From contig OX597818.1 of the NCBI GenBank assembly GCA_951406725.2, forward strand, positions 92,256,001 to 92,320,000: 64,000 bases of DNA, in the 5' to 3' direction. Made by a program: the position numbers and the translations under genes. The stretch's first letter is position 1. The number at the start of each line of letters is the position of its first letter. Below the pieces are notes generated by a model that was not told the DNA's origin, made no database searches, and saw only the letters and a program-made list of their open reading frames with translations. This document shows, in pieces, positions 7,991 through 64,000 of this stretch. The stretch comes from Octopus vulgaris. Taxonomy: Eukaryota.

Positions 7991-9103
7991 CAGGCCCTTT
8001 CGGAACATTCACGATGTGAATTTTCCGAGTCCTCTCCCCATCACCACCCCTTTCGCGAGCGCGCAATGTTTTCGTCATATTCGTTTAGAGCAAGTTGTTT
8101 TACACCTATTACACAATTTTCTTTTTTTTTTTTTTTGTTCCCAGGTCAGACCCTTAGGCCCTTTCGGAACATTCACGATGGGAATTTTCCGAGTCCTCTC
8201 CCCATCACCACTCCTTTCGCGAGCGCGCAATGTTTTTGTCATATTCGTTTAGAGCAAGTTGTTTTACACCTATTACACAATTTTCTTTTTTTTTTTTTTT
8301 GTTCCCAGGTCAGACCCTCAGGCCCTTTCGGAACATTCACGATGGGAATTTTCCGAGTCCTCTCCCCATCACCACCCCTTTCGCGAGCGCGCAATGTTTT
8401 TTGTCATATTCGTTTAGAGCAAGTTGTTTTACACCTATTACACAATTTTCTTTTTTTTTGTTCCCAGGTCAGACCCTCAGGCCCTTTCGGAACATTCACG
8501 ATGGGAATTTTCCGAGTCCTCTCCCCATCACCACCCCTTTCGCGCGCGCGCAATGTTTTTGTCATATTCGTTTAGAGCAAGTTGTTTTACACCTATTACA
8601 CAATTTTCTTTTTTTTTTTTGTTCCCAGGTCAGACCCTCAGGCCCTTTCGGAACATTCACGATGGGAATTTTCCGAGTCCTCTCCCCATCACCACCCCTT
8701 TCGCGAGCGCGCAATGTTTTTTGTCATATTCGTTTAGAGCAAGTTGTTTTACACCTATTACACAATTTTCTTTTTTTTTTTTGTTCCCAGGTCAGACCCT
8801 CAGGCCCTTTCGGAACATTCACGATGGGAATTTTCCGAGTCCTCTCCCCATCACCACCCCTTTCGCGAGCGCGCAATGTTTTTTGTCATATTCGTTTAGA
8901 GCAAGTTGTTTTACACCTATTACACAATTTTCTTTTTTTTTTTTTGTTCCCAGGTCAGACCCTCAGGCCCTTTCGGAACATTCACGATGGGAATTTTCCG
9001 AGTCCTCTCCCCATCACCACCCCTTTCGCGAGCGCGCAATGTTTTTGTCATATTCGTTTAGAGCAAGTTGTTTTACACCTATTACACTATTTTTTTTTTT
9101 TTT
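7991..9103. repeat. ~162-bp satellite, about 7 near-identical copies
   Basis: Unit starts at 7991, 8155, 8319, 8478, 8639, 8801 and 8964; differences are mainly poly-T length. Confidence 0.95.
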
Positions 9104-19705: not shown

Positions 19706-19744
<39 letters not shown>

Positions 19745-19946
19745 GCAATAATAATTCTCTAAAAGGGATATAGACAGTAACTGCTCGATAACATAAGGGA
19801 CTAAAGCCATCTGAATATGGCTAGGGACAGGGCAGGGTGGTGGGGGTGTTACTGTTGCATTTAGCCCCAGGCGAACATCGACGTCACCAGAAAGGCTCGA
19901 CACCGTCACGGTGCCCTAAACCTGCAAAGGGAGGTAATTCCCCGAT

Positions 19947-20020
19947 GAAGCGGAAACCACACACGGACCATGGTTTCAAGGTGTATTGCCTATCATCGGC
20001 GTGTGGTAGGCCTCCGCTTC
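19947..20020 (-). ncRNA. Type I hammerhead ribozyme, minus strand; further copies at 20307-20380, 20667-20740, 21027-21100 and 21386-21459
   Basis: Reverse complement of the 21721-21794 motif in each 360-bp unit. Confidence 0.75.
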
Positions 20021-21720
20021 CTCGACGAATTCTCCCTCTGCAGGATTTTCTTATATAGATTTTCAAGCAAAATACATTTGCTGATTTCGAAAATCTGTTC
20101 GAAAGCAATAATAATTCTCTAAAAGGGATATAGACAGTAACTGCTCGATAACATAAGGGACTAAAGCCATCTGAATATGGCTAGGGACAGGGCAGGGTGG
20201 TGGGGGTGTTACTGTTGCATTTAGCCCCAGGCGAACATCGACGTCACCAGAAAGGCTCGACACCGTCACGGTGCCCTAAACCTGCAAAGGGAGGTAATTC
20301 CCCGATGAAGCGGAAACCACACACGGACCATGGTTTCAAGGTGTATTGCCTATCATCGGCGTGTGGTAGGCCTCCGCTTCCTCGACGAATTCTCCCTCTG
20401 CAGGATTTTCTTATATAGATTTTCAAGCAAAATACATTTGCTGATTTCGAAAATCTGTTCGAAAGCAATAATAATTCTCTAAAAGGGATATAGACAGTAA
20501 CTGCTCGATAACATAAGGGACTAAAGCCATCTGAATATGGCTAGGGACAGGGCAGGGTGGTGGGGGTGTTACTGTTGCATTTAGCCCCAGGCGAACATCG
20601 ACGTCACCAGAAAGGCTCGACACCGTCACGGTGCCCTAAACCTGCAAAGGGAGGTAATTCCCCGATGAAGCGGAAACCACACACGGACCATGGTTTCAAG
20701 GTGTATTGCCTATCATCGGCGTGTGGTAGGCCTCCGCTTCCTCGACGAATTCTCCCTCTGCAGGATTTTCTTATATAGATTTTCAAGCAAAATACATTTG
20801 CTGATTTCGAAAATCTGTTCGAAAGCAATAATAATTCTCTAAAAGGGATATAGACAGTAACTGCTCGATAACATAAGGGACTAAAGCCATCTGAATATGG
20901 CTAGGGACAGGGCAGGGTGGTGGGGGTGTTACTGTTGCATTTAGCCCCAGGCGAACATCGACGTCACCAGAAAGGCTCGACACCGTCACGGTGCCCTAAA
21001 CCTGCAAAGGGAGGTAATTCCCCGATGAAGCGGAAACCACACACGGACCATGGTTTCAAGGTGTATTGCCTATCATCGGCGTGTGGTAGGCCTCCGCTTC
21101 CTCGACGAATTCTCCTCTGCAGGATTTTCTTATATAGATTTTCAAGCAAAATACATTTGCTGATTTCGAAAATCTGTTCGAAAGCAATAATAATTCTCTA
21201 AAAGGGATATAGACAGTAACTGCTCGATAACATAAGGGACTAAAGCCATCTGAATATGGCTAGGGACAGGGCAGGGTGGTGGGGGTGTTACTGTTGCATT
21301 TAGCCCCAGGCGAACATCGACGTCACCAGAAAGGCTCGACACCGTCACGGTGCCCTAAACCTGCAAAGGGAGGTAATTCCCCGATGAAGCGGAAACCACA
21401 CACGGACCATGGTTTCAAGGTGTATTGCCTATCATCGGCGTGTGGTAGGCCTCCGCTTCCTCGACGAATTCTCCCTCTGCAGGATTTTCTTATATAGATT
21501 TTCAAGCAAAATACATTTGCTGATTTCGAAAATCTGTTCGAAAGCAATAATAATTCTCTAAAAGGGATATAGACAGTAACTGCTCGATAACATAAGGGAC
21601 TAACTGTCTATATCCCTTTTAGAGAATTATTATTGCTTTCGAACAGATTTTCGAAATCAGCAAATGTATTTTGCTTGAAAATCTATATAAGAAAATCCTG
21701 CAGAGGGAGAATTCGTCGAG

Positions 21721-21794
21721 GAAGCGGAGGCCTACCACACGCCGATGATAGGCAATACACCTTGAAACCATGGTCCGTGTGTGGTTTCCGCTTC
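21721..21794 (+). ncRNA. Type I hammerhead ribozyme (core variant CCGAUGA, GUC site); further + copies at 22080-22153 and 22440-22513
   Basis: accacacg CCGATGA taggcaatacacctt GAAA c catg g TC cgtgtgtggt; distal stem I gaagcgga/tccgcttc; predicted cleavage after 21775. Confidence 0.75.
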
Positions 21795-22668
21795 ATCGGG
21801 GAATTACCTCCTTTGCAGGTTTAGGGCACCGTGACGGTGTCGAGCCTTTCTGGTGACGTCGATGTTCGCCTGGGGCTAAATGCAACAGTAACACCCCCAC
21901 CACCCTGCCCTGTCCCTAGCCATATTCAGATGGCTTTAGTCCCTTATGTTATCGAGCAGTTACTGTCTATATCCCTTTTAGAGAATTATTATTGCTTTCG
22001 AACAGATTTTCGAAATCAGCAAATGTATTTTGCTTGAAAATCTATATAAGAAAATCCTGCAGAGGGAGAATTCGTCGAGGAAGCGGAGGCCTACCACACG
22101 CCGATGATAGGCAATACACCTTGAAACCATGGTCCGTGTGTGGTTTCCGCTTCATCGGGGAATTACCTCCCTTTGCAGGTTTAGGGCACCGTGACGGTGT
22201 CGAGCCTTTCTGGTGACGTCGATGTTCGCCTGGGGCTAAATGCAACAGTAACACCCCCACCACCCTGCCCTGTCCCTAGCCATATTCAGATGGCTTTAGT
22301 CCCTTATGTTATCGAGCAGTTACTGTCTATATCCCTTTTAGAGAATTATTATTGCTTTCGAACAGATTTTCGAAATCAGCAAATGTATTTTGCTTGAAAA
22401 TCTATATAAGAAAATCCTGCAGAGGGAGAATTCGTCGAGGAAGCGGAGGCCTACCACACGCCGATGATAGGCAATACACCTTGAAACCATGGTCCGTGTG
22501 TGGTTTCCGCTTCATCGGGGAATTACCTCCCTTTGCAGGTTTAGGGCACCGTGACGGTGTCGAGCCTTTCTGGTGACGTCGATGTTCGCCTGGGGCTAAA
22601 TGCAACAGTAACACCCCCACCACCCTGCCCTGTCCCTAGCCATATTCAGATGGCTTTAGTCCCTTATG

Positions 22669-22752
<84 letters not shown>

Positions 22753-46217: not shown

Positions 46218-46506
46218 GCAGTTGATGGCTACTTTGTACATTTCTTCACTGCTGATTTCTTAAAACCTCTTCCAAAGCACATAATATTTATACTTGATGT
46301 CAGTGGATCAATGTCTGGTACTAAAATTCAACAACTGAAAGAAGCTATGGAAAATATCCTCGATCAACTTGACCCAAAACTTGATAAATTTCTCATCGGA
46401 AAATTCAGCGGTGATGTCAATTGGATGGAGATTAATTTTTTATTCGCAAAAGAAGAAAATATAAAACGAGCAAAAACTCATATTAAGAATATTAGCGCCT
46501 CGGGAG
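46218..46506 (+). CDS. ITIH-like exon 6 (DGYFVHFF...vWA MIDAS DVSGS)
   Basis: ttcatag acceptor, G|gtaagt donor; GYFVHFF and FILDVSGSMSGTKIQQLKEAM are ITIH hallmarks. Confidence 0.95.
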
Positions 46507-47796
46507 GTAAGTTGAAGCATATATATATATATATTGGTTTTCTACTTTTAAAACAATGGACTAAACTTGAATTTTGCTTCTAAATATTATATATTAAGGT
46601 AATATATTACTACTAGGCAAGTTAACCATAGCATATTTAATAGAATTGAATATTAAGCAATGACTAGTATTTTATAGATCTCACAAAGGCATTAAACTGC
46701 GATCGTTGAAAGTTTCTGTGAAATATCGCAAATATAGGATTCCAGAACAATACATCTCAATTTGAGTGGGTGTGCAATTTCTTAACTGGAGTTTGCTACA
46801 TAAAGATGAAACGTGGAAAGATTAGGCACCTTGACATCAGTATTGGGATTCTGCAGAAATGTTTACTGTTTCTATTTTTCTTTCTATTTATCGTGGATTT
46901 TGTAGAAAAAAAGGCGGTTGACTCAATGCTTGAGTGAAATGGGGAAGAATACAGGACTGAGAATGAACGCAGAGAAAGCGAAGGCAATTTTTTGGCCAAG
47001 AAAGAAAGAAATCCACTTTGACGGTTAAAGATGAAACTGTTGACTCAATGAATAGATCAACATACATTCACAGTGTTCCGTACATTGATAGAGGCACTGA
47101 AGCTCGTTGCATGTCAAAATTGGTGGAGCCAAAGTATTTCAACTGGTAACCAATGTCAAGAGCTGCTATAAAAGTACTCTTCCACTACCAACAACACTAT
47201 ATGCCAGCGAATTGCGTAGGAAATATCATCTTGACAACTCCAAAACACAGTAACGGATCGAAAAATATTCTAACCACAAAACAAACTCTAATTCGTAACA
47301 GTCGTTCTCTTATCACTAGATATTGATATTCATAACAGAAAAACATCACCGTTAGTTTGTGAGGAAGTTATTATTTAAGATACTCTTGATGCATTTTCAA
47401 CGTTTCTTGCATGAGAAACTTTTGTTTGAATTTGTGCAAGTTTACTGTTTAAGTAAATTGCTGCCTGTCTCACATATATCATAGGTATACAAAAATAAGG
47501 ATACGATCAATGTCAGAAGTTGAAGAGTCTACATTAAGCTAAACAATGTTAAAACCAACTGACGCTGTATTATGATGTTGCCTTATCGAGGCCCAAACCA
47601 GAAACACATGCTCCGTTTCTATATATGTTCCTTTTACCGTTAAAGTTAGCTTATTTTCATATCAAGTAAACTATGTTTAACATTTAAATATAATATTTGC
47701 ACCTCTCACACACTTTTTGTCCCACTGTTTTTAATCCTTTGTTTCTAGAGTTACTGTATATGTATATTATATATTTTAATTTTGCTGGTATTCCAG

Positions 47797-48506
47797 GTAC
47801 AAATATAAACGCTGCTCTCCTTGAAAGTATAGACAAACATAAATCCGCTGCTGAAAGAGTTTTACCCACCAAGACTAAAAATATCATCATATTTCTCACT
47901 GATGGTCATCCAACAGAAGAGGAAAGCTCTACAGAAAATATCAAGAGAAATGTAAGAGAGGCCAACAAAGAGATTTCATTATTTACTCTTGGTTTCGGAG
48001 AAGATTGTGACCATAAATTTCTACGTGAGATTGCCATGGAAAATGGAGGCTTTAGTAGGAAGATCTACGTTGACTCTGACAGTAGACTTCAAATTGAAAA
48101 TTTTTATAAAGAAATATCTAACATTTTATTAAAGGATATTACGTTTGTTTACTTAGATAGTGCTGTTAATACTAGTTCTACGTCATTTAGCAGCTACTTC
48201 AAAGGATCAGAATTAGTTGTTTCAGGTGTTTTGAAGGATAAAACCCAATCGACCATGCTACTAAAGGTAAACAAGACAGACAATACGGGACGAAATACTG
48301 ATATATTAAAATTGAATATCAATCTGAGTGGAATTGGAGATGACTTTACTCTATACGATGATCTTCCTGAAAATCCAGAATTGACAAGTGTTCAGTCATT
48401 TTCTGAAATTACTGAAAAGAGTTATGCTTACCTCACCCTGAAACAACTTCTCAAAAAAGAGAGAACAAGCCATGTGAAAACGAAAATTCTTAATCTGGCA
48501 CTTAAG
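47797..48506 (+). CDS. ITIH-like exon 7 (vWA: GTNINAAL, IIFLTDG, SLFTLGFG, YFKGSELVVSG, YAYLTLKQLL)
   Basis: ttccag acceptor, AAG|gtgagt donor, 710 nt phase 1-0; lies within ORF 47697..48551. Confidence 0.95.
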
Positions 48507-49289
48507 GTGAGTAAAAAATTAATGAAGATTAATAGCCATTTTATTGCCTAAATTTTAAAGATAACAGCTTTATTTGTTTCAGTTACCAATATAACTAATT
48601 AATTCTGGCCTTGTGCCAAAATTTGAAACCAATATAAATAACTACATTTATTCACTTAAACGGAGCTTTCACGCACAAGTATCTTTTAAAATGTTCTGTA
48701 AGATGATATATCACAAAGTGTCATTCCATGTTTGTATGAAAATTATGTTATACAGACTAGTATTTTTATCTAAGACTATTTCACATGCTTATAATAATTT
48801 GATTCTGCCTGGCTAGCTTTCGCACAGATACATAATTGCTTTGTTTACCGATTCCTGTATCGGAGCAAGTATTTTCGGCTTAACATACAACGTCTGGGAC
48901 TGCCGTCATTGAGGAAACCAAATCAGGTTGAAACACCATGATGAAGACTATACTGAAATTCTGAGCGAAGCCCTGTGTTTATAACATGCTAGCCATTGAA
49001 ATATGTTTTTCCACAACATATGTTAAAACTACAGATGGTCCACGTTTGTAAATACAAGTTTAATCCAAAGTTGTTTAAAGTGCGTAAATTAAATTAACAA
49101 ATTAATTATTTTAAAATCGTACACAATTTATAAATTACCATTGAGATAATTTCTATTAAAATTTGTATTAAGTCAAATCGAAGAAATTTAAATAGATGTA
49201 ATTCTTCTTCACAACATAAATAACATAATTTCCGTTAAAAATGTTTGCCATATCATGTTGATTATGATATCTAGTTTTCAGATATGATA

Positions 49290-49855
49290 TTGGGTTGTCC
49301 GGAAAGTTCGCACCGATTTATAGTAGCTTACCTTTCGGCTTATTTTAGAACATGGTTGAGCCCATAAAATAGGATTTGATTACACCTCCATTTAGAGCAC
49401 AGTTTAAGCTATCTTTTCGTGGAAGATGGTTTATGTTCCTATTACCTGTGTTAATTCTGTAACCCTTTAAAATGGAAGATAAGAAAGTTCATTTTCGGCA
49501 CTTGATGCTTTGGGAACCAGACAAAAATTGCTGCGGCTCGGCTGGGATGTGTAACCCCACCCTCCATATTCGCCAGATATTGCTCCTTCGGATTTCCACT
49601 TATTCAGGTCACTGCAGAATAGTCTTAATGGTAAAAATTTCAATTCCTTGGATGACGTAAAAAGATACCTTGATGAATTCTTTGCCATGAAACCACCTCA
49701 ATTCTGGGAAGAGGGTATTTTCAAGTTAAAGGAAAGATGGAGTCGCATTGTGCAACAAAATGGTTCATATTATGTTGATTAAAAATGTAATGGCAAGTAT
49801 TTATTGACCTTTTACTTTCCTTTAAAAATCGGCACGAACTTTCCGGACAACCCAA
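49290..49855 (+). mobile_element. Internally deleted mariner element (same family as 5379-5916)
   Basis: TIRs ttgggttgtccggaaagttcg / cgaactttccggacaacccaa; HPPYSPDIAPSDFHLFRSL mariner motif. Confidence 0.92.
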
Positions 49856-50261
49856 TGCATCTTTTAATTTGTTTCTTTGTTATGACGGACTCATTGTATC
49901 TGTAATTTATTCCATCATGAATTCTTTATCATTTATTCCTTACATAATGACGTCTTGCTTACAGAAATATTTCTTAGGCATATTTCCAACTTTTTCCGCA
50001 AAATATTTTGTATTAAAAACCTCTTGGAAAAGTCGACCTTTTGAACAAAGAGGCAAAATTAAATGTTTTTATTCCTTTAGTCTAGCAATCTTCAATCTTA
50101 GCCATTCAAAGTTCCTGAAGCTTATTCATTACCATCAAAAATATACCAACAATGAAAGCATGAAATATAAAGTTGATGGAGTTTTAATCGTCATTGTTAT
50201 GTATTGTAACATTGTTTCATATTTCTGTGGTACTAAAATGTAATATTCTTCCTTGTGACAG

Positions 50262-50337
50262 TATAATTTTGTAACACCATTAACATCAATGGTTGTCACC
50301 AAATCTACAGTTAAAGAGAAACATTTTGGCCAAAACG
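50262..50337 (+). CDS. ITIH-like exon 8 (YNFVTPLTSMVVTK...)
   Basis: gtgacag acceptor, G|gtaagt donor; conserved ITIH motif YxFVTPLTSMVVTK. Confidence 0.93.
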
Positions 50338-50510
50338 GTAAGTTTTTACTTTATACCACTTTAATTTATTTACAGAGAGATCTTGTTGAAATAAAGTTTT
50401 CACGCTCCGTTATATATTTGTTTTGCTCTTTTTTATGTGGAGTGGACATAAATAATTTGTCTTATGAAATTGGTAACTATATTCTATTCCTTATTTAATG
50501 TTGATCACAG

Positions 50511-50699
50511 CTTTTGAGTATTACCATAGTCCTCGTCGTCGTCGTTGTCACCATCGTCATCCATTTGCATCATCACCATCACCAGAATCATCATTATCCT
50601 TATATCTACATCACCATCTTCCTCGTCATCATCATCGTCGTCGTCATCATCTGCTCAATCCATCTGTTCAAAATTTTCTTTCCAAAAGGTCCCATGACA
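50511..50699 (+). CDS. Candidate His/Arg-rich exon 9 of the ITIH-like gene
   Basis: atcacag acceptor, A|gtaaag donor (same donor type as exon 3), 189 nt phase 1-1, stop-free in frame with exon 8; low complexity, so uncertain. Confidence 0.4.
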
Positions 50700-50974
50700 G
50701 TAAAGTATTAAAGTACATCATTTTGGCAAATTTCTGTTCATCCCATCAGTTTTCATGGGATAGACGAGAACAAAGTAAAATTATACAAAGTAAAATTGTA
50801 ATGGCGGTCTATATAATATAAGTATTGTTCTTTATATATGTTGTCCTTGGTATACACTCTCTGTGAGGTTTTCTTGACAGCAATCACTAATTCGATAAAT
50901 CATTTATTCTGGTGCAATATCAGATATATATAAATATAATTATATACATATATATATATATATATATATAATAT

Positions 50975-51087
<113 letters not shown>

Positions 51088-51380
51088 TACGTGACCGACC
51101 AGGCCATCATATGTTGCTACATACATCGCTGGTCACAATGCGCTTCGCATTGTTTTGGCCTTCAATGACGCCACCCCGCTGGATAAGCGAGCAGGCCAAC
51201 AGAAGAAAGAGTGAAAGAAAGTTGTGGTGAAAGAGTACAGCAGGGATCACCACCAACCCTTGCCGGAGCCACGCGAAGCTTTAAGCGTTTTCGCTCAACG
51301 CCCTGTCTGGAAATCGAAACCACGAGTCCGCTGCCCTAGCCACTGGGCTATTTTGCCACCACGTATATATATATATATAT

Positions 51381-51448
51381 ATATTTATTTTAGTAGTTTT
51401 GACTTTAAGAGTCCCTGCTAGCGTGTGGCATTTATGTGTAATAATGCC

Positions 51449-51490
<42 letters not shown>

Positions 51491-51528
51491 CCTGCTAGCG
51501 TGTGGCATTTATGTGTAATAATGCCTTC

Positions 51529-51583
<55 letters not shown>

Positions 51584-51940
51584 GGCATTATTACACATAA
51601 ATGCCACACGCTAGCAGGGGACTCTTAAAGTCAAAACTACTAAAATAAATAAACATATCGTACCGAATGCAACTCTCGAAGTAAGTCATTTAAAAACAGA
51701 ATTTCTGTTTTTAAATGACTTACTTCGAGAGTTGCATTCGGTAATGATATGTTTATTTATTTTAGTAGTTTTGACTTTAAGAGTCCCTCCTAGCGCGTGG
51801 CATTTATGTGTAATAATGCCTTCTATATAATATAAATATATCTAAGTGAAAAAATTGGTAGATTTTTTTCTCTTATATGAGGTTTTTCACGCTAACTACT
51901 TGGTAAATTCTTATGAAGATTTTATCCTATTTTTAAATTA
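51381..51940. repeat. (TA)n-embedded palindrome with ~120-bp arms (51581-51823, centre 51702) plus two truncated copies
   Basis: gaaggcattattacac...aaaacagaa t ttctgtttt...gtgtaataatgccttc; partial copies at 51381-51451 and 51488-51528. Confidence 0.85.
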
Positions 51941-52065
51941 TATATATATATATATATATATATCATATCATATCATATCATACATAAACATGCTCGCAAT
52001 TGCATTCGGAACATAGACACTCGTACACACATGTATGTATGTATGTATGTATGTATGTATGTATG

Positions 52066-52138
<73 letters not shown>

Positions 52139-52156
52139 ATGTATATGTATATATAC

Positions 52157-52194
<38 letters not shown>

Positions 52195-52575
52195 GCACAC
52201 GCACACGCACACACACATATATACATATATATATAGAGAGAGAGATAGACAGACATACAAACAGACAGAGACAGAGAGCAATCACTGGCCATATCGCGGT
52301 TCACCTATTGCATCCTCAGTACATCGCGGATTTTTCTGGGTAATATATGTAAATTTATATCGCGGGTTTCTGCAGCCGATAGGTATTGTTATTTTTTTAA
52401 TATTTTTATTATTTCTATGGTAAAATAAGCATTTTCACGCCTAAGATTAATAAATTAATAAATAAAAATAATTTTAAAAAATATATACTGTAGTATTGCT
52501 TCTTTTTCATGGATTTTCACCTATCGCGGGTGTTTTGGAACGTAACACACGCGTTAGCTGAGGTATTACTGCATG

Positions 52576-52648
<73 letters not shown>

Positions 52649-52674
52649 GTGAGTTATTATTATTATTATTATTA

Positions 52675-52960
<286 letters not shown>

Positions 52961-54498
52961 GTTTCAAACAAGTATGTTGTTGAAAATGACTTCTTCGAAG
53001 TTTCGGCCAGCTAAATCATCGTCGGACTGTCCGACGATGGATTAACCGGCCGGAATTTCGAAGTGACGCTCAACAACATTCAGGTTTAAGAATAAACTTC
53101 TGGTCCACAAAAGTAAACATTAATTCCCAAATTAATTATTTTTATTATAACTAAACATTAAAACACACATAAAAAACTTAATACACAAACACACACACTC
53201 CCAAGGGAAAGATCGTTTTCGTTTGCTGTGACCGCTTCCCGTAAATATAATGAGGTTAGTGGTTTTTGTGGCTTTCGGAGTTAAGTTCAACTCTTATTTT
53301 TAGCAATCGCTGGGCTTCTTTCTGTTTCTGTCTACCAAATTTACTTTCTTTGGTCAGCCCGTGACGATAGCAGAAGACTTATCATGGAACCATATAGTTG
53401 GGAGGCAAACTTCTTACCACTCATTCAGCCCAGTACGTACACATATTTCGCACATATTAAAAATGTTCGCGGGCAAAGATGCCGTGTAAAATGTAATCTC
53501 GAAAGAATTAAAAATCTACTTTTAAAATTTTTTACTGATTAAGACTTATACAGAAAGTAAAAGGAAATAAATGAATATTCTACTTACCAACATTGGCAGG
53601 TCTCTCTGAAATTTGAGGAATTTTAATTGTTAGGAAATGCGTTTCAATATTCAAGTTCTATTGTTTTAGTCATATTAAATTAAGGAAATTCAAAATTAAT
53701 TAGTTGATATAAATCAGTGAAAAAGAATAAGTCAATTACATCGACCCTGGCGCTCAAATGGAACTTATTTTTGTCGACCCCAGAGACAAAGTTCACCTCA
53801 TCAGAATTTGAATTCAGAACATAAAGACGGGTAAAATGCCACTAAGCATATTACCCGGCACAGTAACGATTCTGCCAGCTCACTACTTAAGTTTCAAATT
53901 TTGATACAAGGCCAGGAATTTTGGAGAGCGGGTAAATCTATTGCATCAACCCCATACTCTACTGTTACTTGCTTTATCTACCCTGGAAGGATGGAATGTG
54001 AAGACGATCCCAGCGAATTGATGATAACAAAAGGCACAAGGCCTGGAATTAAGGGGAGGGCGGATAGTCAATTGCACCGAGTCCAGTACGAAACTGGTAC
54101 TTGTTTTATCGACCCCAAAATAAGGAAAGGCAAAGTCGAACTCGGCAGCATTTGAACTCAGAACGTAAAGAACGAAATGCCGCTAAGCATTATACCCGAC
54201 GTGCTAAAGATTCTACCAGCTCATCGCCTGAGGTTTCAAATTTTGGTACAAGGCCAGCAATTTTAGGGAAGTGTGTTAGCCGATTACATCAACCCTAGTA
54301 ATCTGCTCTTACTTAGTTTATCGACCCCGGAAGGATGAAAGAAAAAATCGACCTCGGCGAATTCGTAATAATAATTATTATTTCGAATTTTGCCACAGGG
54401 AGCTTGAGGGAGGTGGAGTCGAGTCGATTACATCGACCCCAGTGTTCAAGTGATACTTATTTTAATCGACCCCAAACGGATGAAAGGTAAAGTCGACA

Positions 54499-56356
54499 TC
54501 GCTTTACTGAAGTCAAGGTATATGACGTCAGAGTTCGAACCTGTTCCCAAGGCTTTGAGTACATCTTCAATGTGGTGTAAGAGCTGTGTTAGACAGTCCC
54601 TGCCACAGCGAAAGCCATGTTGATTTGAATTTAGGAGTTTGTGGGTCTCCAGGAAGTCAGCTATCCTTGATCTTAACACTCTTTCAAACACTTTAATGAT
54701 GTGGGAGGTGAGTGAGATTGGGCGATAGTTGACTGCGAGGGATCTGTTTCCCTGTTTGAAAACCGGGATGACCGACTGGGATAGAAACTTATTCGGTATA
54801 TAACCTGCGTCTAATGAGTTTCTCCAGAGGTTGGTCAGAGGGACTGCCAGTTGATATCTACATTCCTTCAGGAGACTGGCGGGAAATCTATCAGGGCCTA
54901 CAGCGGAGTAATGTTTGACCTCATTTATTGCTGCTACGATGTCGGTGGCAGTGAAGGTTATGTCTGCGATTTTGTGTTGGGAGTCAGCTTCGTTCGTTTC
55001 CCTCACATCAATATCAGTGGGAACACTGAAGACAGAGCAATATTGTTTCTGCAGTATTTCTGCCATTTCTTTAGCATCGTGTTGGGGAATGCCGTTTTCA
55101 TCAATCAATGGCCCAATAGGTGAGACAGTGGTTCTATGCTTATTTGCATAAGAATAGAACACTTTTGGGTTCTGTTTGATGTTTTTGATTACCCATTGTT
55201 CCTCCACAGCTCTTTGATTTTCAATGGAGGTTTTCATGTTAGTCTGCAGATGAAGTTTTTCCAGCTCTAGTCTTTTCATTGTTGTTGAATGTGGATGTTG
55301 CGTGTGGGAATATTTTAATTGGTTGATTTTTTTGTTGAGTCTTTTGATGCGCCTGATGAGTGTTTTTTTCTTTTTAGGGAGCCGGTTTCTGTTTGTGTTA
55401 GTAGATTTCTTGGGAGCGTGTTTAGAGCATGTGTCGGTGACAATGGTTTCAAAGTGCTGCCACGCGGTCTCAATATGAGGGGAATTGAGAGTAAAAGACC
55501 AGTCGATGGAAGACAGATCCTTTCTGATTGTTCCCCAGTCCGCTTTGTGGAAATTTATGTTGTCAAATGGGTGCCATGGAGTGGGATTGGCTGGTTTGGT
55601 TTTTATACGTCGGGAATTAAGATTGCAGAGTACCATGTCGTGGTCTGAGAGGAGAGTTTTTTCGACTGAAATGCTGTGAACGTAGCTAGAGTGATTGGTC
55701 AGTACCAGATCCAAGATCGTTTTATTCTGTCTCGTTGGTTCAAGCACTAGCTGAGTCAGGAAATACTCATCCATCAGATTAAAGAGCAGTTCTGCTGCTG
55801 CCCTATCTGATGTAGAGCACTTGCCTAACTTCGGAGTATTTGTGGGCCAGTTCACATGAGGGAGGTTAAAATCACCCATCACTATTATGTTTCCGGAGTG
55901 GTACTTCCGAAGGAAGGACTTGACTTTGCTAAGGCACTCTTCAAAGTACTTTAGAGGTGCCTGGGGAGGCCTGTAAAGACCAACAATGGTTATGTCCTTG
56001 GCTTTGTTGTATACTGATACCGATTCACAGTAGCCATTGGAAAATGTGTCCTTGGCATCAAGTGAAAAGGAGTCATGGATAAAGATGGCTGTCCCTCCCT
56101 TATTTCGGTCTGTGCGATCTGCACGAACAATGGTGAAATCTTTTATTTTCACCTCTGCGTCCATATGGGTGTTGTTCAGGTGAGTCTCGGTAAGGATAAA
56201 GAAAGGGAAGCAATGTGCCATTTCGGCAAGCCAACTCTCTATATATGGGATCTTCCATTTTTGGGCAATAATTGATGGGTTGATGCCACGTACATTTAAC
56301 AGGAATGTCGAGGTAAGGGAAGTTGGTAATGGGTGAGTGGTCCTTGTGATTTGCAT
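54499..56356 (-). CDS. LINE ORF2 (APE endonuclease plus N-terminal part of RT), CR1/L2-type, 3'-truncated
   Basis: LNVRG, LTETHL, GGT, YRPP, MGDFN, LDLVL, SDH (APE); GPD, NYRPISLTS, QHGFR, DVIYLDFSKA (RT); then breaks into SINE sequence. Confidence 0.92.
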
Positions 56357-57567
56357 AGATGGTTGGTGATGGCTCGCTGGATCTCCTGGCTTAGGTCGGC
56401 CTTCATATTTTCCAGGTATGTCAGTAAAAAAGAGTTACTTGTTTGGTTTGCCACTTGGTCAGAGGATACATATTTCAAGTTGGCGTTATTTGGTGTTTTT
56501 TCCTGGTTCTGTCTACGTAGTTTGATTGTAGGAGGGGAAACGTGGTTGTATTTTGTTCTTGTTGTTGTCCTAGATTTCCTCTGTTCCTGTTCATATCTAT
56601 TCTGTGATCGTTTTGTGCCCTTCAGATGGTGGTTGTTGCATTCTGGGTTCAGGCACATCCTTTGTGAGACAGAAGTTTGGCACAGTTTAGGATGGAATAA
56701 GGTGCATCTATTGCCTCTTATGCATCCGTATTTAGGGTCAGAACCATAGATTCTGTATTTAGGACAGTATTTGGGGTGGAGGTGGGGGCAATTTTTTCCT
56801 GTTATACCGTATGGACAGGTGCCCATAGCAAGTCTACGACATAAGGTCGGGTGGGGAAAAGCACAGCGTCCATTTTTGTTTGTGCCGCTGGGGCCAAATC
56901 TACAAGTGTCTTTAGAATAGTAACGGCAGGGGGTTTTATTTGGTTGTAGTAGTGGTTTTTCTATTTTGGCAGTAGTAGTAGTGGTGGTGGTGGTGGTGGT
57001 GTTAGAAGCAGCTTGTTGATTTTGTGATGGTGGGTTCTGGCTTGCCAGTATGTGGTCAAATCTGCAGCTGCCTTGAGAGTAGTAGTGGCAGATGGTTTTA
57101 CGCGGATGTAGTAGTGGTTTTCCTATTGTGGCAGTAGTGGGGAGTTGTAGCAGCATTGGAACTTGACTAGTGGTAGTATTAGAGTGTTGTTGTTGTTGTT
57201 TTTGTTGCTGTAGCGAAGGTGAGACTTGACTTGGTTCATCAGGTGCTGTTGTCAATGGAAGTAGGTCAGTTGATTGTTGCTGTTGAAGTGACCACTGACC
57301 TGTTGGGATTTGGTCATTTGTTGTACTGGATTCGTTGGCAAGAATGGCTTTTAGTGTAGCCATGTGCGCGTGAAAAATAGGGAATATCCTAACAATTTCT
57401 TTTAATTTATTTTCTATCTGTTTTACAGATCTGTGAAAGGATTTTTTCGTTAAATCCTCAGTTATTTTGCTATAAACATTAGCTTCGTTGTGATGGATGA
57501 ACCAAGCGTTAATCATTGCAGTAATTTTATTTTCAACCCAGCGGCGTTTTTGAAAATTATTGGCCAT
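56296..57567 (-). CDS. LINE ORF1 with repeated CCCH-type zinc fingers and Q/T-rich linkers
   Basis: Open frame from MANNFQ; motifs CRYYSKDTCRFG...CAFPHP, CRRLAMGTCPYG...CPHLHP, CPKY...C...CTLFHP, CQTS...C...CNNHH; overlaps ORF2 by 61 nt. Confidence 0.8.
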   Translation of the reverse strand: MANNFQKRRWVENKITAMINAWFIHHNEANVYSKITEDLTKKSFHRSVKQIENKLKEIVRIFPIFHAHMATLKAILANESSTTNDQIPTGQWSLQQQQSTDLLPLTTAPDEPSQVSPSLQQQKQQQQHSNTTTSQVPMLLQLPTTATIGKPLLHPRKTICHYYSQGSCRFDHILASQNPPSQNQQAASNTTTTTTTTTTAKIEKPLLQPNKTPCRYYSKDTCRFGPSGTNKNGRCAFPHPTLCRRLAMGTCPYGITGKNCPHLHPKYCPKYRIYGSDPKYGCIRGNRCTLFHPKLCQTSVSQRMCLNPECNNHHLKGTKRSQNRYEQEQRKSRTTTRTKYNHVSPPTIKLRRQNQEKTPNNANLKYVSSDQVANQTSNSFLLTYLENMKADLSQEIQRAITNHLCKSQGPLTHYQLPLPRHSC

Positions 57568-58489
57568 ATTCAGTGGGGTAGTGTTGTCTAATATATATAT
57601 GTATGTATGTGTATGCGTGTGTATGTATGTGTACACCAGTTATTGATGGCTTGATGTAAAATAGTGAACACACTGTTGAAAAGTTTGTGTCGATATACTC
57701 GGTAAATAGTGAATACACCGTTGGAAAGTTTGTGTCGATATACTCGGAAATTCGTGGCTTGTGTGTGTGAGAGTTCAGTGTAATTAGTACAATCTAATTT
57801 AATTAGTACAATCGGGATGAGCGGTGTGTTTGATACAGACCAAGAAAAAAGAATTGTACTCACGGGACTAGTTTTAGAACTAGTCTTGGGTTTAGTATTT
57901 AGTTTTGGGTTGTTCCTCTTTCTTCAGGTTGTATATAGATTTGTATAAATTTATCCTCCGATGGTAGTAAAAGAGTAGTATAGTAGGATTGTAGAGTTCA
58001 AAAGTCTTGAGATTAAAGACAAGGAGAGATTATGTTAGCTTGAGTTGAGTTGAGTTGAGTTAAATTGAGTTGAAAAATGCTTCTTTGGTTAGTTACTGAC
58101 GGGAGCTATAGAAAGTACGTCTTGTCACGACGACTGCCTGACTGGCTACTATATATATATATATACATACACATCTATGCATACACAGTACATATTCACA
58201 AAAACCCATACAGACACCCACAGATACACTCAGACATGCACACACAAGGAGACAGCGGTAAACACACACACACACACACATGCAAACACACATAAAAACA
58301 CACAAACACCAATACACAAACACACAAACACATGAATATGCAAAATACATACATACAAACATAAACACATACATGAATACCTACATACATAGCGCCCACA
58401 CACACACATTCATACATGTATACACACACTTACATGCATGCATGCTTACATACATACATACATACATACGTACATACATACATACATAC

Positions 58490-58550
<61 letters not shown>

Positions 58551-58555
<5 letters not shown>

Positions 58556-59072
58556 TATTCTAATGACAAATATGCCGAAACAAAAAATTGTTGATAACCA
58601 TTATAATTTATGCGTCGAAACAAACCGATAGAAATCTCTAAAAATTCGTTATTACCGTATTGGTCCAATTTACCGTATTGGTCCAATATATTAATTATAA
58701 ATAGATTAGTGTTCACTCCCGGATTCTATCACTCTGTGAAAGTTTCTAGTTCGAATCACACGTGCCTCGAGGTGCGCTGAAGATTTTTCTATTTTGGATA
58801 TATTTGGGGTACTTAGGTCTGCTCAGGACTTAGTGCTTGCTTTTTCCATGGGTATAAGTAAGTATTTCATTTATATCTCGCGTATCTGCCGCTGAAGAGG
58901 GGAAAATTTCTTATGAATTAACCCCGAAATTGGACCAATACGGTAATAACGAATTTTTTAGAGATTTCTATCGGTTTGTTTCGAGACGCATAAATTATAA
59001 TAGTTATCAACAATTTTTTGTTTCGGCATATTTGGCATTAGAATTTTTTCTTCTGCCCTTATCTTGTAAACT
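58551..59072. mobile_element. (TA)n-embedded fold-back element with one HHR
   Basis: 58558-58669 is an inverted copy of about 58927-59045; (TA)n on both sides. Confidence 0.75.
58879..58951 (+). ncRNA. Type I hammerhead ribozyme (CUGAAGA, AUA site)
   Basis: cgtatctgccg CTGAAGA gggg...cccc GAAA ttggaccaa TA cggtaataacg; stems I, II and III all pair; predicted cleavage after 58940. Confidence 0.8.
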
Positions 59073-59075
59073 ATG

Positions 59076-59106
<31 letters not shown>

Positions 59107-59179
59107 ATATATATGTATGTATATATATATGTATGTATATATATATATGTATGTATATATATATGTATGTATATATATA

Positions 59180-59227
<48 letters not shown>

Positions 59228-59500
59228 CACGGAGTAGACGAAGCAGAGGCGGCTGAAGAAGGGGAATTTTCCTTGTGTTGTATGTCTTGTACTCTGTTTT
59301 TTCGTTGTTCAAAAAAATGTCCGTTTCCATGGTTTTGTTTTTATGTTTTCGTTTCTCATTGTGTTCGACGTTTGTTTGGTGTCGTGTACCCATATATACA
59401 TGTATATATATTATATAGATATAGGTACGTACATATATGTATGTACATATGCATATGTTTTATTTATTATGTTGTTATATATATATATATATATATATAT

Positions 59501-59866
59501 ATAATCAAAAATAAGCAACAAGAATGGATCCGGTAATGTAGTACAATTGTTTCATACTATAACATTTTATTAAAAGCTGTAAATATTACAGCAGATATAA
59601 TGTTACTAATTGATTTGAGAATTTTATATTATTGGAAAACCTATATGAAATTACCTGAAGATTACTTGACATATTATATCTGCTGTAATATTTACAGCTT
59701 TTAATAAAATGTTATAGTATGAAACAATTGTACTAAATTACCGGATCCATTCTTGTTGCTTATTTTTTATTATAATCACCCCGCATATTTTTATGGGTAA
59801 TACCATAAAAAATTCTGGTGCATCTAAATTAAGTACCATATTCATTTGAACCTAAATTGTTTGCTG

Positions 59867-59869
<3 letters not shown>
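59501..59869. mobile_element. (TA)n-embedded fold-back element with a degenerate HHR (59648-59740)
   Basis: About 59501-59603 is inverted relative to about 59668-59773; CTGAAGA(59655), long stem II, GAAA c aatt g TA; first pair of stem I is mismatched. Confidence 0.6.
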
Positions 59870-59937
<68 letters not shown>

Positions 59938-60631
59938 CATACATACATACATACATACATACATACATACATACATACATACATACATACATAACATACA
60001 TACATGTATGTTTATGCGTGTCTTTGCGTCTGTGTTTGTATCCCACCAACGCTGGGGAGTAGTTTTGAAAAAAAATAGTCGTCTTGCCTTTTGCAATTAG
60101 TCCTACTTAATTTGATTTGGTGTTGAATTCAATGTGTTTTATTTTAATCTCTTTATATTTCGCATCGTTTTTTCTGAACATTTTCTTGTATATGTTTCCT
60201 GTTATTTTAAAACCTAATAGTAAATATGTATTTCTTCAGAAATTATTTTCACAAGCACGGCATAACTATTTTGTTGCGGTTCAACATTCCTAAAATATTT
60301 ATTGTCAGATATTTCATATTTAGTATACAACATTAATGGAAATCAGGTTTATGAAAAGTGGGCATAAAATATTTACATAATAGAAATAACATATCACTGT
60401 AAAATTTATGATATAATATAGTTGTGAAGGAAATATCACCGTTGAGCAGTAAACACACCACTAAATGACCACAAATAAGAATTACATTTCTTAGTCAAGC
60501 AGTGGTATTATTCCTTTCTAACAGATTTACATTAAACAACTAATTTAAACTATATGTAGCTTAATACGTTTAAACGACCGTATATGACAATTGATAAGTA
60601 TTTCCTAATAATTAAAATTCTTACATTTCAG

Positions 60632-60658
60632 GTAGGCGTAATCCATTCAGATTTAATC
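60632..60658 (+). CDS. 27-nt microexon (xRRNPFRFN) of the ITIH-like gene
   Basis: ttacatttcag acceptor and C|gtaagt donor, phase 1-1, compatible with exon 8 or 9. Confidence 0.6.
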
Positions 60659-60779
60659 GTAAGTAGACTATTTTGTTGTTTCATTTCACTTTATGTATGT
60701 TTCTTTAGTTAAAATCTTAAACAGCCGATTTTTATTTCTATCAACAAACACGGCATGTGTCTCTACGTAAAAAAATTAA

Positions 60780-61487
60780 TATATTCGAAATACACATTAT
60801 CGAAACAGCGTATATTGTTACAAAGCCCGACGGCTTAGAAGGTATGATAAAAGATTCTAATTTTATTATCAAAGCAAAATATTCAAAACAGACGCGAAGA
60901 AATTTTATAGGCAAATTGGTAAAACGATGATAGATGTAAAGGAGACATTTAAAATTGAAGACCTGGAAGAGTTCTGGAAGAAGATAACAATGAAAAGTTT
61001 AATGCTAAAATTGACGGGATAGAACGTGAGAAGGGGGCCACAGGATGTAATTGAAAAGATAGGGTTAGCTCTTATAAAGTCTTATTAATGGAAAATCCCG
61101 CGACCTGACTTCTAGCTGAATTGTTTGGGAGATGTACACGAAAATTTCACTATATCTCTAATTATCATTCAGAATCCCGAGCAAATATCTACCAAAATCT
61201 CATGATACAAAATTCCTGAAGAATTACCGACAAATGACATGTCTCAATACCACTTACATGACTCCTAAATCTATAATAACTGAAAGAATGTACACTTTCC
61301 TTGCACAGAACGTTATCCTTCCACAAGCACAGAAAGACAGTAAAATAATTCTTATGGGTGCAAAGATCAATTACCATAAATAGAACGAGTTTAGAAAGTT
61401 GCCGCAGCAAAGTAAAATACTGTGTACGCCGAAGATAGACTACACGAAAGCATTTGATAGTGTCCCACATCGATGGATACTCGAAGT

Positions 61488-61524
<37 letters not shown>

Positions 61525-61940
61525 ACTTCGAGTATATATAAGATCTTTCTTGCCATCTCCAAAAATTTACGAAACAGCATGCCCAAATAGACCACGTCTT
61601 TTTCTTAACCATAGTAATGGAATAAGCCATTCAATAGCTTCAGTATCACGCGAGGCATCCATTAAAGTGACTCCATGTCCTCATTACTTCTCTGCATGGC
61701 ACTAGTCCCACTTTCAAACCAATTGAACAACATCGGAATGCCTACAAAAGTCTTAGGATAATAAACCATTTCTTTTTGCATGGACAATCTGAAACCGTTT
61801 GCAAGAGATAGACGGGCTGCGAATAAGTGTTAAAGAGTTTAACAATGATATCTGGATGGATTTTGGCCTTGAGAAGTTTGCTAAAGCAAATTTGGATTGG
61901 ACAGAAGCTCAGACAAACAACATCCATTAAATTAGACACT
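60780..61940 (+). pseudogene. Decayed Dong/R4-like RT remnant
   Basis: IDYTKAFDSVPHRWILEVL (about 61435-61490) and a GLEK-like segment; many stops. Confidence 0.6.
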
Positions 61941-62570
61941 AGCATCAACTTGGCCCACACGAAATGCATAAACACGTAGGTATAATGCAGAGTTGGCATC
62001 AATTTTTCTTGCGAATCTACAAGCTTCCTTGACAACAGAATATAATTGTTTTCTTGTTCGTACACAAGTCGCAGCATATAGACCTCTGCACTGCATAAAT
62101 ACATGTTCATTCCTATAGTGGAGTTTCCATAGCATAACAATCCTTTTCCTTCAGTACTTTTATGTTGGTAAAAACCGTCAACGTCTGCCTAAAGGCAGTG
62201 AATGTTAGAGATCAATCATTTTCTTGTCTTCTTGCCCTTGCGTTGGAGTCCCAGAGGCGAGCAATTAATGATATCGAACTGTACTCGACAACTGGATTTG
62301 ACTACGTATGTTCTAATATGTTTAAACAGTAATATACTTTTTTTAAACAGTAATATACTTTTTAAACAGTAATATACTCTTTTGAAAGCGTTTTATCGAA
62401 CGTTTTAAGTATATTAAGAAATTTAATAGTAATTCACTTTAGCAGATAATGACTTTATTTGGAGGAAAATATTAAATAATTTCCTTTGAGCGACTATAGA
62501 TAAACCAAAAAATGTATATCTTAATAGCTTCAAAACTTATATATACATCATTCTTCTCTATTTTTTTCAG

Positions 62571-62585
62571 TTCGTCCTTCACATG
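62571..62585 (+). CDS. 15-nt microexon copy 1 (xRPSH)
   Basis: ttttttttcag|TTCGTCCTTCACATG|gtatgt, phase 1-1. Confidence 0.6.
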
Positions 62586-62872
62586 GTATGTAACTATTTA
62601 AATATTTCCAATTGCATTTTCCAGTTTAAAACAGTCATTTTCTAGTTTAAAACATTAAGTTGAGGTCTTAAGTCACATTATTGAATTCATAAGATGCTGT
62701 GTATATATTTTCAGATTGATTTGATTGTAATTCACTTTAGCAGTTAATAATTTTATTTGGAGGAAAATATTAAATTATTTCCTTTGAACGACTATAGATA
62801 AACCAAAAAAATGTATATCATAATAGCTTCAGAATTTATATGTACATCATTCTTCTCTATTTTCTTTTTCAG

Positions 62873-62887
62873 TTCGTCCTTCACAAG
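62873..62887 (+). CDS. 15-nt microexon copy 2 (VRPSQ)
   Basis: ctttttcag|TTCGTCCTTCACAAG|gtatgt, phase 1-1. Confidence 0.6.
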
Positions 62888-63168
62888 GTATGTAACTATT
62901 TCCAATTGCATTTTCCAGTTTAAAACAGTCATTTTCTAGTTTAAAACATTAATTTGAAGTCTTAATTCACATTATTGAATTCATAAGATACTGTGTATAT
63001 ACTTTCAGATTGATTTGATAGTAATTCACTTTAGCAGTTAATAATTTTATTTGGAGGAAAATATTAAATTATTTCCTTTGAATGAATATAGATAAACCAA
63101 AAAAATGTATATCATAATAGCTTCAGAATTTATATGTACATCATTCTTCTCTATTTTTTGGGTTTTAG

Positions 63169-63183
63169 TTCGTCCTTCAAAGG
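63169..63183 (+). CDS. 15-nt microexon copy 3 (VRPSK)
   Basis: ggttttag|TTCGTCCTTCAAAGG|gtatgt, phase 1-1. Confidence 0.55.
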
Positions 63184-63389
63184 GTATGTAACTATTTATA
63201 TATTTCCAATGGATTTTTCTCGTTTAAATCAGTTATTTTCTAGTTTAAAACATTAATTTTAGATTTTAATTCATATTATTGAATTCATAAGATGCTGTGT
63301 ATATATTTTCAGATTGATTTTATTATATTAACAATCTGAAAATATGGATAACTAATAATATAACATAAACACAAAAGATCATACACGTA

Positions 63390-63900
63390 CAGGGTGTTCG
63401 GACTAAATTTAACAGTTTGGATACAAGGAAGAGAAAATACAATATTCCATACTGAATTAGAAGGATTTTTAAATAACTAAACTTATCAACAAGATGGCTA
63501 GCAAATGGGTGTTTACTGAAAGGAGCCGTCCTCAGCTCCCATCTAAGCCTCACAACGGATCCGGAACCTGGTTCATGCGTTCCTCACTGTGTTCCTGAGA
63601 AGATTTTTGAACACCTTCGTCTTGACACCCAGCCTGGCCTCTGTGTTGAAAGCAGAGTAGATAGTTATCTTTCTCACCTGCTTCCATACACGGTAATCCA
63701 TTTGATTAAAATCGGAGAATCAGGATGCCCGAAACTGGGGTTGGTGTAGCCATAAGAATTCTCCGACAGCCATTTCTGATTCTTTCCAGTATTATAACAA
63801 AGAGCTAAATCCTGCAGCTACACACATGGCCTTCACGCAGCAGCCCTATACAGTCAGGGGTTGACTGCTTCACATAGTCGTCTGAACTGAGATTAAGGGG
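63390..63900 (-). mobile_element. Degraded Tc1/mariner-like relic
   Basis: ta-cagggtgt TIR-like end; decayed transposase-like sequence on minus strand. Confidence 0.4.
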
Positions 63901-64000
63901 TCTATTTAAAATTGTAGCAATCAACCCATGCGTGCGAACGCAGTCGTAAGTGACCATTCATGAATGTCACAATTTTGTAAACTCCGATGCAACTGTCCAG

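What the first reader, a model, noticed from the sequence alone, without database searches (positions are those of the whole stretch)
58551..59072. Third HHR family (AUA site), sense-oriented in a downstream ITIH intron
Seen: gccg CUGAAGA gggg-(19 nt)-cccc GAAA uuggaccaa UA cggu with extended stem I, preceded by an inverted copy of its own 3' part and a 16-bp junction duplication (taccgtattggtccaa twice), all inside (TA)n. Stem III can form 3 bp plus the A-U pair intramolecularly, so it might cleave as a monomer (inference). The inverted copy ends within the ribozyme stem III, which suggests template switching during reverse transcription.
Basis: partly seen in the sequence, partly recalled or inferred. 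Interest (0 to 1): 0.7.

Follow-up and report, generated by a model that had tools for sequence, protein, structure and literature searches.

The report
Intronic hammerhead retrozyme, antisense-locked copy
This is one of hundreds of copies of a small protein-free repeat carrying a hammerhead self-cutting RNA motif, a known kind of genomic parasite likely pasted in by Penelope-type enzymes, and in this intron copy a back-to-front arm is predicted to pair over the cutting site and switch it off.

Summary
The motif is real: a type I hammerhead at 58887-58945 (+), AUA site, cut predicted after 58940 (1 of 200 shuffled windows gave such a hit). It lies sense in intron 50338-60631 of an ITIH-like gene. 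It belongs to a 468-nt non-coding, (TA)n-inserted repeat family: 299 exact core matches, plus a sister family with 761; 5 of 16 helix pairs change on both sides between them. This is a non-LTR retrozyme with Penelope-type insertion scars: 79 of 112 loci are head-to-head, and 53 of 57 classable loci use one each of two fixed 3' ends about 88 nt apart. Corrections: the duplication is 18 bp; junctions are not enriched at the ribozyme (9 of 158 against 6.1 expected); stem III folds poorly alone (+1.8 kcal/mol; dimer duplex -8.9); and the inverted arm is predicted to sequester the cleavage site in the pre-mRNA. No parent Penelope ORF was found; cleavage and circles are untested. This scan already noted such retrozymes and the two-ended insertion pattern on other DNA of this genome. 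Known kind, low interest.

The parts
58491..58550 (.). (TA)n left flank, the likely target site
   Evidence: 158 of 191 outer ends of family copies lie at (TA)n
58551..58671 (-). Inverted, 5'-truncated arm (monomer positions about 241-360), whose outer end carries the motif of 3' end site B, probably after an internal deletion of about 110 nt
   Evidence: 95% to 58927-59047; end letters against the commonest B ends; the deletion is inferred
58652..58687 (+). Perfect 18-bp direct repeat at the arm junction (second unit 58670-58687 is a re-copy of the inverted arm's last letters)
58687..59079 (+). Sense arm: positions 1 to about 390 of the 468-nt monomer, ending at 3' end site A (exact end blurred by TA microhomology, 59072-59079)
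   Evidence: 94-96% to the 29 other best genomic copies; monomer period from tandem copies
58887..58945 (+). Type I hammerhead: stem I 58887-91/58941-45, core 58892-98, stem II 58899-902/58922-25, GAAA 58926-29, stem III 58929-32/58936-39, AUA triplet, predicted cut 58940/58941
59072..59227 (.). TA/TATG microsatellite right flank
50338..60631 (+). Host intron (GT..AG, 10.3 kb) of an ITIH-like VWA gene, between exons 50262-50337 and 60632-60658

Best explanation
This is a single, inverted-plus-direct insertion of a 468-nt non-coding hammerhead repeat (a non-LTR retrozyme), likely copied from a tandem or circular RNA by a Penelope-like reverse transcriptase/endonuclease working in trans, and its ribozyme is predicted to be locked shut in the host pre-mRNA. 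Shown: the motif, the family, the tandem monomer, TA targeting, head-to-head arms, two fixed 3' ends used one per arm, intron position. Inferred: the enzyme cuts both strands of a (TA)n, primes one cDNA at site A (about monomer 389) and the other at site B (about 88 nt further on), both cDNAs stop at variable points and are joined by short overlaps or short templated inserts, here an 18-nt re-copy. Inferred: in source arrays the ribozyme cleaves multimeric RNA, more likely as a dimer through the palindromic stem III than as a monomer. Predicted: in this copy the inverted arm is transcribed first and forms a duplex of about 120 bp over stem III, the cut site and the 3' strand of stem I, so the intron is not cut.
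For: Family size: 299 exact core matches, 154 forward and 145 reverse, control 0; sister family about 70-78% alike, 761 matches, control 0. Period 468 and no ATG-started frame over 60 aa in a natural tandem copy, GC 32%. Core conservation in 44 copies from 34 loci chosen by DNA similarity: 5 of 528 core letters differ against 387 of 12907 elsewhere, p 0.0016. Structure: 96.5% of 432 cells paired, changes on both sides in distal stem I, stem I, stem II (two pairs) and stem III; slid controls give 0-1 such pairs. Architecture: 79 of 112 loci head-to-head, 1 tail-to-tail; ends 72 A, 92 B, 27 other; 53 of 57 loci with both ends classed are A+B, 4 B+B, 0 A+A (28.4 expected if independent); junctions 43 overlapping, 8 blunt, 28 with extra letters. 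These match published Penelope features: inverted 5'-truncated copies, a tail at one end only, TA bias (PMC8557442, passages), two reverse-transcription start sites and extension of both strands (PMC11167929). Intact Neptune-like ORFs of 781 aa with RT and GIY-YIG exist in the genome. Folding: whole element -229 kcal/mol, cut site paired with the inverted arm at probability 0.9999; stem I probability 0 at all five prefix lengths with the arm, 0.03-0.29 without.
Against: No autonomous element shares the monomer: none of 30 GIY-YIG loci, 11 longer stretches, 30 Hydra-like loci or 36 further loci showed it as a terminal repeat of an ORF, so the enzyme is unidentified. Cleavage, circles and RNA ends could not be seen: only contigs were available. 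Stems are hardly more conserved than the rest within the family (26 of 967 against 3.0%). The count of pairs with two-sided change is reached by 85 of 500 shuffles, and the changes reflect only two or three subfamily splits. The tail here (about 88 nt) is longer than the published 30-40 bp. Most loci hold under two full units, unlike typical retrozyme arrays. Equilibrium folding does not model co-transcriptional kinetics, proteins or splicing. This copy's left end was classed 'other', and its assignment to site B rests on about 12 AT-rich letters.
Confidence: 0.8

Rival explanations
1. The copies are 5'-truncated solo pseudo-LTRs of an autonomous Penelope-like element that my samples missed, not an independent retrozyme.
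For: Insertion scars are those of Penelope-like elements; hammerheads with a long stem II and dimer-type stem III sit in pLTRs (PMC4209133, part 1 of 4); only the best 150 of 6136 GIY-YIG and 150 of 6998 Hydra-linker candidates were scored.
Against: Upstream of a monomer there is always more monomer, an inverted arm or unrelated flank, never shared coding sequence, in the first 30 loci; arms run through the unit end into the next unit; Penelope fragments near copies are separated by (TA)n and have unrelated 3' regions.
Confidence: 0.12
2. The copy is an active monomeric ribozyme that cuts the ITIH-like pre-mRNA and so affects the host gene.
For: All 12 core letters are canonical, the orientation is sense, stem III can form 3 pairs plus A-U, and the hammerhead fold of the 59-nt motif is within 1 kcal/mol of its minimum (-10.4 against -11.4).
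Against: Stem III probability at most 0.04; this copy has a C at 58886 where 41 of 44 copies have T, losing a stem I pair; the inverted arm is predicted to sequester the site; transcripts spliced across this intron exist in RNA-like contigs, though those animals may lack the insertion.
Confidence: 0.05
3. The inverted arm arose by a fold-back template switch provoked by the stem III palindrome or by a cleaved 5' end.
For: This arm does stop at 58927 and the 18-bp re-copy covers the palindrome; a few other copies (L020, L028) also stop in the ribozyme.
Against: No enrichment of arm ends there; outer ends of the two arms differ systematically (A+B in 53 of 57), which a fold-back from one cDNA does not explain.
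Confidence: 0.08

Closest known systems
Metazoan non-LTR retrozymes (Cervera and de la Pena 2020, PMC7229834, passages seen; Li, Clavereau and Pollet 2026, 10.64898/2026.07.22.740005, parts 1-2 of 5 seen)
   Same: Type I hammerhead in a short, low-GC, non-coding unit found as monomers and partial tandems, dispersed genome-wide, coexisting with Penelope-like elements; intronic copies are common in Xenopus (about 43% of copies).
   Different: Unit 468 nt, above the 170-400 nt of the 2020 paper but inside the 51-972 bp of the 2026 preprint; mostly under two units per locus; head-to-head arms in (TA)n with no recognisable target duplication; circles and cleavage untested.
Penelope-like element pseudo-LTRs with hammerheads (PMC4209133, part 1 of 4; PMC8557442, passages and section 11)
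   Same: Inverted 5'-truncated arm, partial tandems, tail at one end only, microsatellite target, palindromic stem III suited to dimer cleavage.
   Different: No RT/GIY-YIG ORF attached; tail about 88 nt rather than 30-40; no sequence likeness to the Neptune-like or Hydra-like elements sampled here.
Poseidon element of Anolis, in vitro mechanism (PMC11167929, parts 1-2 of 4 seen)
   Same: Internal initiation at two sites, AT-rich target, both strands cut and extended; ribozyme cleavage not needed for insertion, in line with junctions ignoring the cut site here.
   Different: That is an autonomous element; the strict one-A-one-B use of start sites on opposite arms was not in the parts I read; here both ends share AT microhomology with the target.

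Membership tests
Type I hammerhead ribozyme | Core CUGANGA, GAAA, UH in type I order | tested here: met
   5 of 528 core letters differ in 44 copies
Type I hammerhead ribozyme | Three helices supported by compensatory change | tested here: met
   5 of 16 pairs change on both sides, at least one in each helix; few independent events, and stem III was fixed by the search patterns
Type I hammerhead ribozyme | Match to an Rfam hammerhead model | tested here: not met
   no hammerhead family at gathering or E<=10
Type I hammerhead ribozyme | Self-cleavage 3' of H17 | not testable with these tools
   needs an assay; folding predicts a weak monomer
Non-LTR retrozyme | Short non-coding low-GC unit with one type I hammerhead, repeated in tandem | tested here: met
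   468 nt, GC 32%, longest ATG frame 60 aa; full dimers or partial tandems at other loci; this copy has one ribozyme only, so it fails the 2026 preprint's 'active' criterion of two complete units
Non-LTR retrozyme | Dispersed multicopy family without LTR, PBS, PPT or ORF | tested here: met
   299 exact core matches on many contigs; no attached ORF; PBS and PPT were not searched for specifically
Non-LTR retrozyme | Expression as unit-length linear and circular RNA | tested here: inconclusive
   contigs of four small runs (three guessed to be RNA, one of unstated kind) cover 28-29 of 29 bins of a monomer; one contig joins unit end to start, which genomic tandems also give
Penelope-like element (autonomous) | ORF with RT and GIY-YIG between pseudo-LTRs | tested here: not met
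   none attached in the loci examined
Penelope-like element (insertion signature) | Inverted 5'-truncated arm, tail at one end, microsatellite target | tested here: met
   79 of 112; 53 of 57; 158 of 191

The most novel reading that the evidence does not exclude
Twin-primed retrozyme insertions carry their own antisense lock: when the inverted arm reaches past the cut site it disarms the ribozyme in any host transcript (36 of 79 head-to-head loci here), which would let sense copies survive in introns and turn them into long double-stranded editing substrates; and the strict one-A-one-B rule would record an ordered two-step priming by the Penelope enzyme on one RNA.
Probability: 0.2. Interest if true: 0.5.

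Novelty: new member of a known kind. Interest (0 to 1): 0.22.

Why it matters
As a single copy it matters little: animal retrozymes and Penelope hammerheads are described, and this scan has noted such families many times in this genome. The family is useful as a natural read-out of how Penelope enzymes copy non-coding RNAs (two fixed start points used one per arm; junctions that ignore the ribozyme cut site), and the predicted antisense lock offers a simple testable reason why sense hammerheads can sit in introns without harming the host transcript.

Tried and rejected
Rfam scans gave no hammerhead. An apparent cluster of inversion ends at the ribozyme, seen by eye in the first 30 loci, vanished in 112 loci (7 of 44 against 5.3 expected for arms lacking a full ribozyme). 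One search's first tally (94 of 112) was inflated by TA matches in the reference and was replaced. Partner search: the young 781-aa Neptune-like family has its own 3' repeat with only chance 8-13-nt matches to the monomer; 30 Hydra-like loci gave one 21-nt match at E 0.036 and no canonical hammerhead within about 1.5 kb of the linker; Penelope fragments beside copies are separate insertions at shared TA sites. A mixed pattern (sister stem I with this family's stem III) had 0 matches. Motif search for later ITIH exons by protein motif failed in the window and 36 kb beyond; the exon was found through RNA-like contigs. No holder on record as RNA was listed; only contigs could be laid, so ends, strand and level are unknown, and no molecule ends were listed. 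Earlier-finding look-ups by sequence and by nearby place returned nothing. Literature searches 'hammerhead, Penelope, octopus' (5 papers, 4 listed) and 'cephalopod, hammerhead ribozyme' (4 papers, 2 listed) showed no paper on this family by title or abstract start; supplements of PMC7229834, PMC4209133 and PMC8557442 were not opened and may list cephalopod hammerheads.

Full report
Observation. A structure-aware scan of both strands finds one type I hammerhead in the window, core at 58892, with 5 pairs in stem I, 4 in stem II and 3 plus the A-U pair in stem III; 1 of 200 block-wise dinucleotide shuffles of the window gave a hit of that strictness. The cut would fall after the A of AUA at 58940 (AUA fits the NUH rule; recalled). 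The inverted copy 58554-58671 is 95% identical to 58927-59047. The junction repeat is 18 bp and perfect. Rfam has no matching hammerhead model at gathering or at E up to 10, and the 96-nt region is not unusually stable (z -0.34).

Host gene. Exons at 46218-46504 and 47796-48503 carry VWA domains, and the second matches ITIH4 and ITIH1 in the PDB. Contigs of four runs guessed to be RNA splice 46504 to 47795 and 48504 to 50260 with GT..AG ends; one contig continues after 50340 with 26 letters that map only at 60635 in the window. This gives an intron 50338-60631 and a 27-nt exon 60632-60658. The element is therefore sense in an intron. The stretch from about 58124 to 64000 is duplicated in tandem just beyond the window (98% over 4956 columns), so a second copy of the element (521 identities, one gap) and of the exon follows.

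Family. A DNA search scored 40 of 3072 candidates and listed 70 matches, the best 30 at 94-100%. An exact core pattern gives 299 matches with 0 in the reversed control. Tandem copies define a 468-nt monomer, 32% GC, without an ATG frame over 60 aa; a unit cut at the ribozyme folds at z -2.2 (5 of 100 shuffles as low). Loose ends of contigs revealed a sister family, about 70-78% alike, with 761 exact matches.

Is the ribozyme under selection? In 44 ribozyme-spanning copies from 34 loci chosen by DNA similarity, 5 of 528 core letters differ from the column majority (0.95%), against 26 of 967 in stems, 28 of 835 in loop II and 387 of 12907 elsewhere (p 0.0016 for core against rest; copies are related and were chosen by closeness to a query that holds the core). 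On 27 aligned copies (13 of this family, 14 of the sister; three length variants of the 30 listed were left out) 96.5% of 432 cells pair and 5 of 16 pairs change on both sides, spread over all helices; slid structures give 0-1 such pairs, but 85 of 500 shuffles reach five pairs, the events are few, and core and stem III were fixed by the patterns that chose the rows. I read this as good support for a real hammerhead in the family.

How the copies were inserted. Of 112 independent loci (30, 30, 60 fetched, one, minus 9 repeats of the same insertion), 79 have head-to-head arms and 1 tail-to-tail. Of 191 outer ends, 72 stop at site A (about monomer 389), 92 at site B (about 88 nt later) and 27 elsewhere; 158 lie at (TA)n. 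Among 57 loci with both ends at A or B, 53 are A+B, 4 B+B, none A+A (28.4 A+B expected if independent, p 2e-12); 23 more loci have one end elsewhere. Junctions overlap in 43, are blunt in 8 and hold extra letters in 28. Arm 5' ends are spread along the unit with no excess at the cut site or stem III (4 and 9 of 158; 2.4 and 6.1 expected). The window's copy fits: sense arm from A, inverted arm ending in the commonest B letters after an inferred deletion of about 110 nt, joined through an 18-nt re-copy. Published Penelope work describes inverted truncated arms, a 30-40 bp tail at one end and TA bias (PMC8557442, passages), and in vitro two internal start sites, extension of both strands and no need for ribozyme cleavage (PMC11167929). 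Priming from both cut strands at two start points is thus the simplest inference.

Partner. The genome holds a young Neptune-like family (781-aa RT plus GIY-YIG; clade assignment from the linker, recalled pattern) and a Hydra-like family with the CxCX5C linker. Neither shares the monomer. Copies found beside Penelope fragments are separated from them by microsatellite. The mobilising enzyme is unidentified.

Would this copy cut? Constrained folding puts the hammerhead 1.0 kcal/mol above the minimum at 59 nt and 2.7 above at 96 nt; stem III alone is +1.8 kcal/mol while two copies of its palindrome pair at -8.9, the dimer arrangement described for animal hammerheads (PMC4209133; PMC7229834). This copy has also lost one stem I pair (C at 58886, T in 41 of 44). 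With the inverted arm present the element folds into a hairpin of -229 kcal/mol, the cut site pairs with the arm at probability 0.9999 and stem I has probability 0 at every prefix tested, against 0.03-0.29 without the arm. The copy is predicted to be silent in the pre-mRNA. The same overlap holds at 36 of 79 head-to-head loci. These are equilibrium predictions.

Comparison and verdict. It works like, and meets the sequence-level definition of, a metazoan non-LTR retrozyme (PMC7229834; 10.64898/2026.07.22.740005, which argues these derive from Penelope pseudo-LTRs); cleavage and circular RNA are untested, and contigs only show that family sequence is present in four small runs. It is not an autonomous Penelope element. 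Two library searches showed no paper on this family, with supplements unseen. Earlier notes of this scan (8 shown of 249 that fit) describe 359-360 and 485-495 nt retrozymes with the same two-armed, two-start pattern on other DNA of this genome; I had reached that reading before opening them, and they are not independent support. New member of a known kind; interest 0.22.

Noticed in passing
window 19744-22672: 360-nt unit, 5.2 copies in one direction then 3.0 in the other at 99% identity, between (TA)n runs; holds a CCGAUGA motif on both strands; looks like another head-to-head retrozyme insertion, no canonical hammerhead found by my scans.
   Followed up: partly
window 58124-64000 and G000:C5 about 92320000-92325600: Tandem duplication of about 5.87 kb (98%) that copies the element and the 27-nt in-frame ITIH exon 60632-60658; recent duplication or an assembly of two haplotypes.
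   Followed up: partly
L096 1745-4090 and like loci L095, L098-L103: Young Neptune-like Penelope family: intact 781-codon RT/GIY-YIG frame preceded by a second, overlapping open frame of up to 479 codons, with a variant minimal hammerhead-like motif near the 3' end.
   Followed up: partly
L104 2340-4161 and L166-L195: Hydra-like Penelope family with CxCX5C linker, long asparagine runs and a long 3' region without a canonical hammerhead in the 1.5 kb examined.
   Followed up: partly
L095, L227-L231: Several family copies sit in the (TA)n at the 3' end of Neptune-like elements; enrichment over background was not tested.
   Followed up: partly
window 58903-58921: The 19-nt 'loop II' is probably an internal loop plus a small distal hairpin, which varies in a pair-keeping way in the sister family (seen by eye).
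   Followed up: no
window 59500-59775: A perfect-looking inverted repeat element of about 280 nt (self-match 87% over 282), MITE-like.
   Followed up: no
window 54446-57639: LINE-like element on the minus strand inside the same intron: a zinc-finger ORF of 447 codons and an endonuclease/RT ORF of 662 codons.
   Followed up: no
window 7991-9103 and 62421-63320: Tandem arrays of 162 nt (6.9 copies) and 294 nt (3 copies) with no hammerhead core in the first units.
   Followed up: partly
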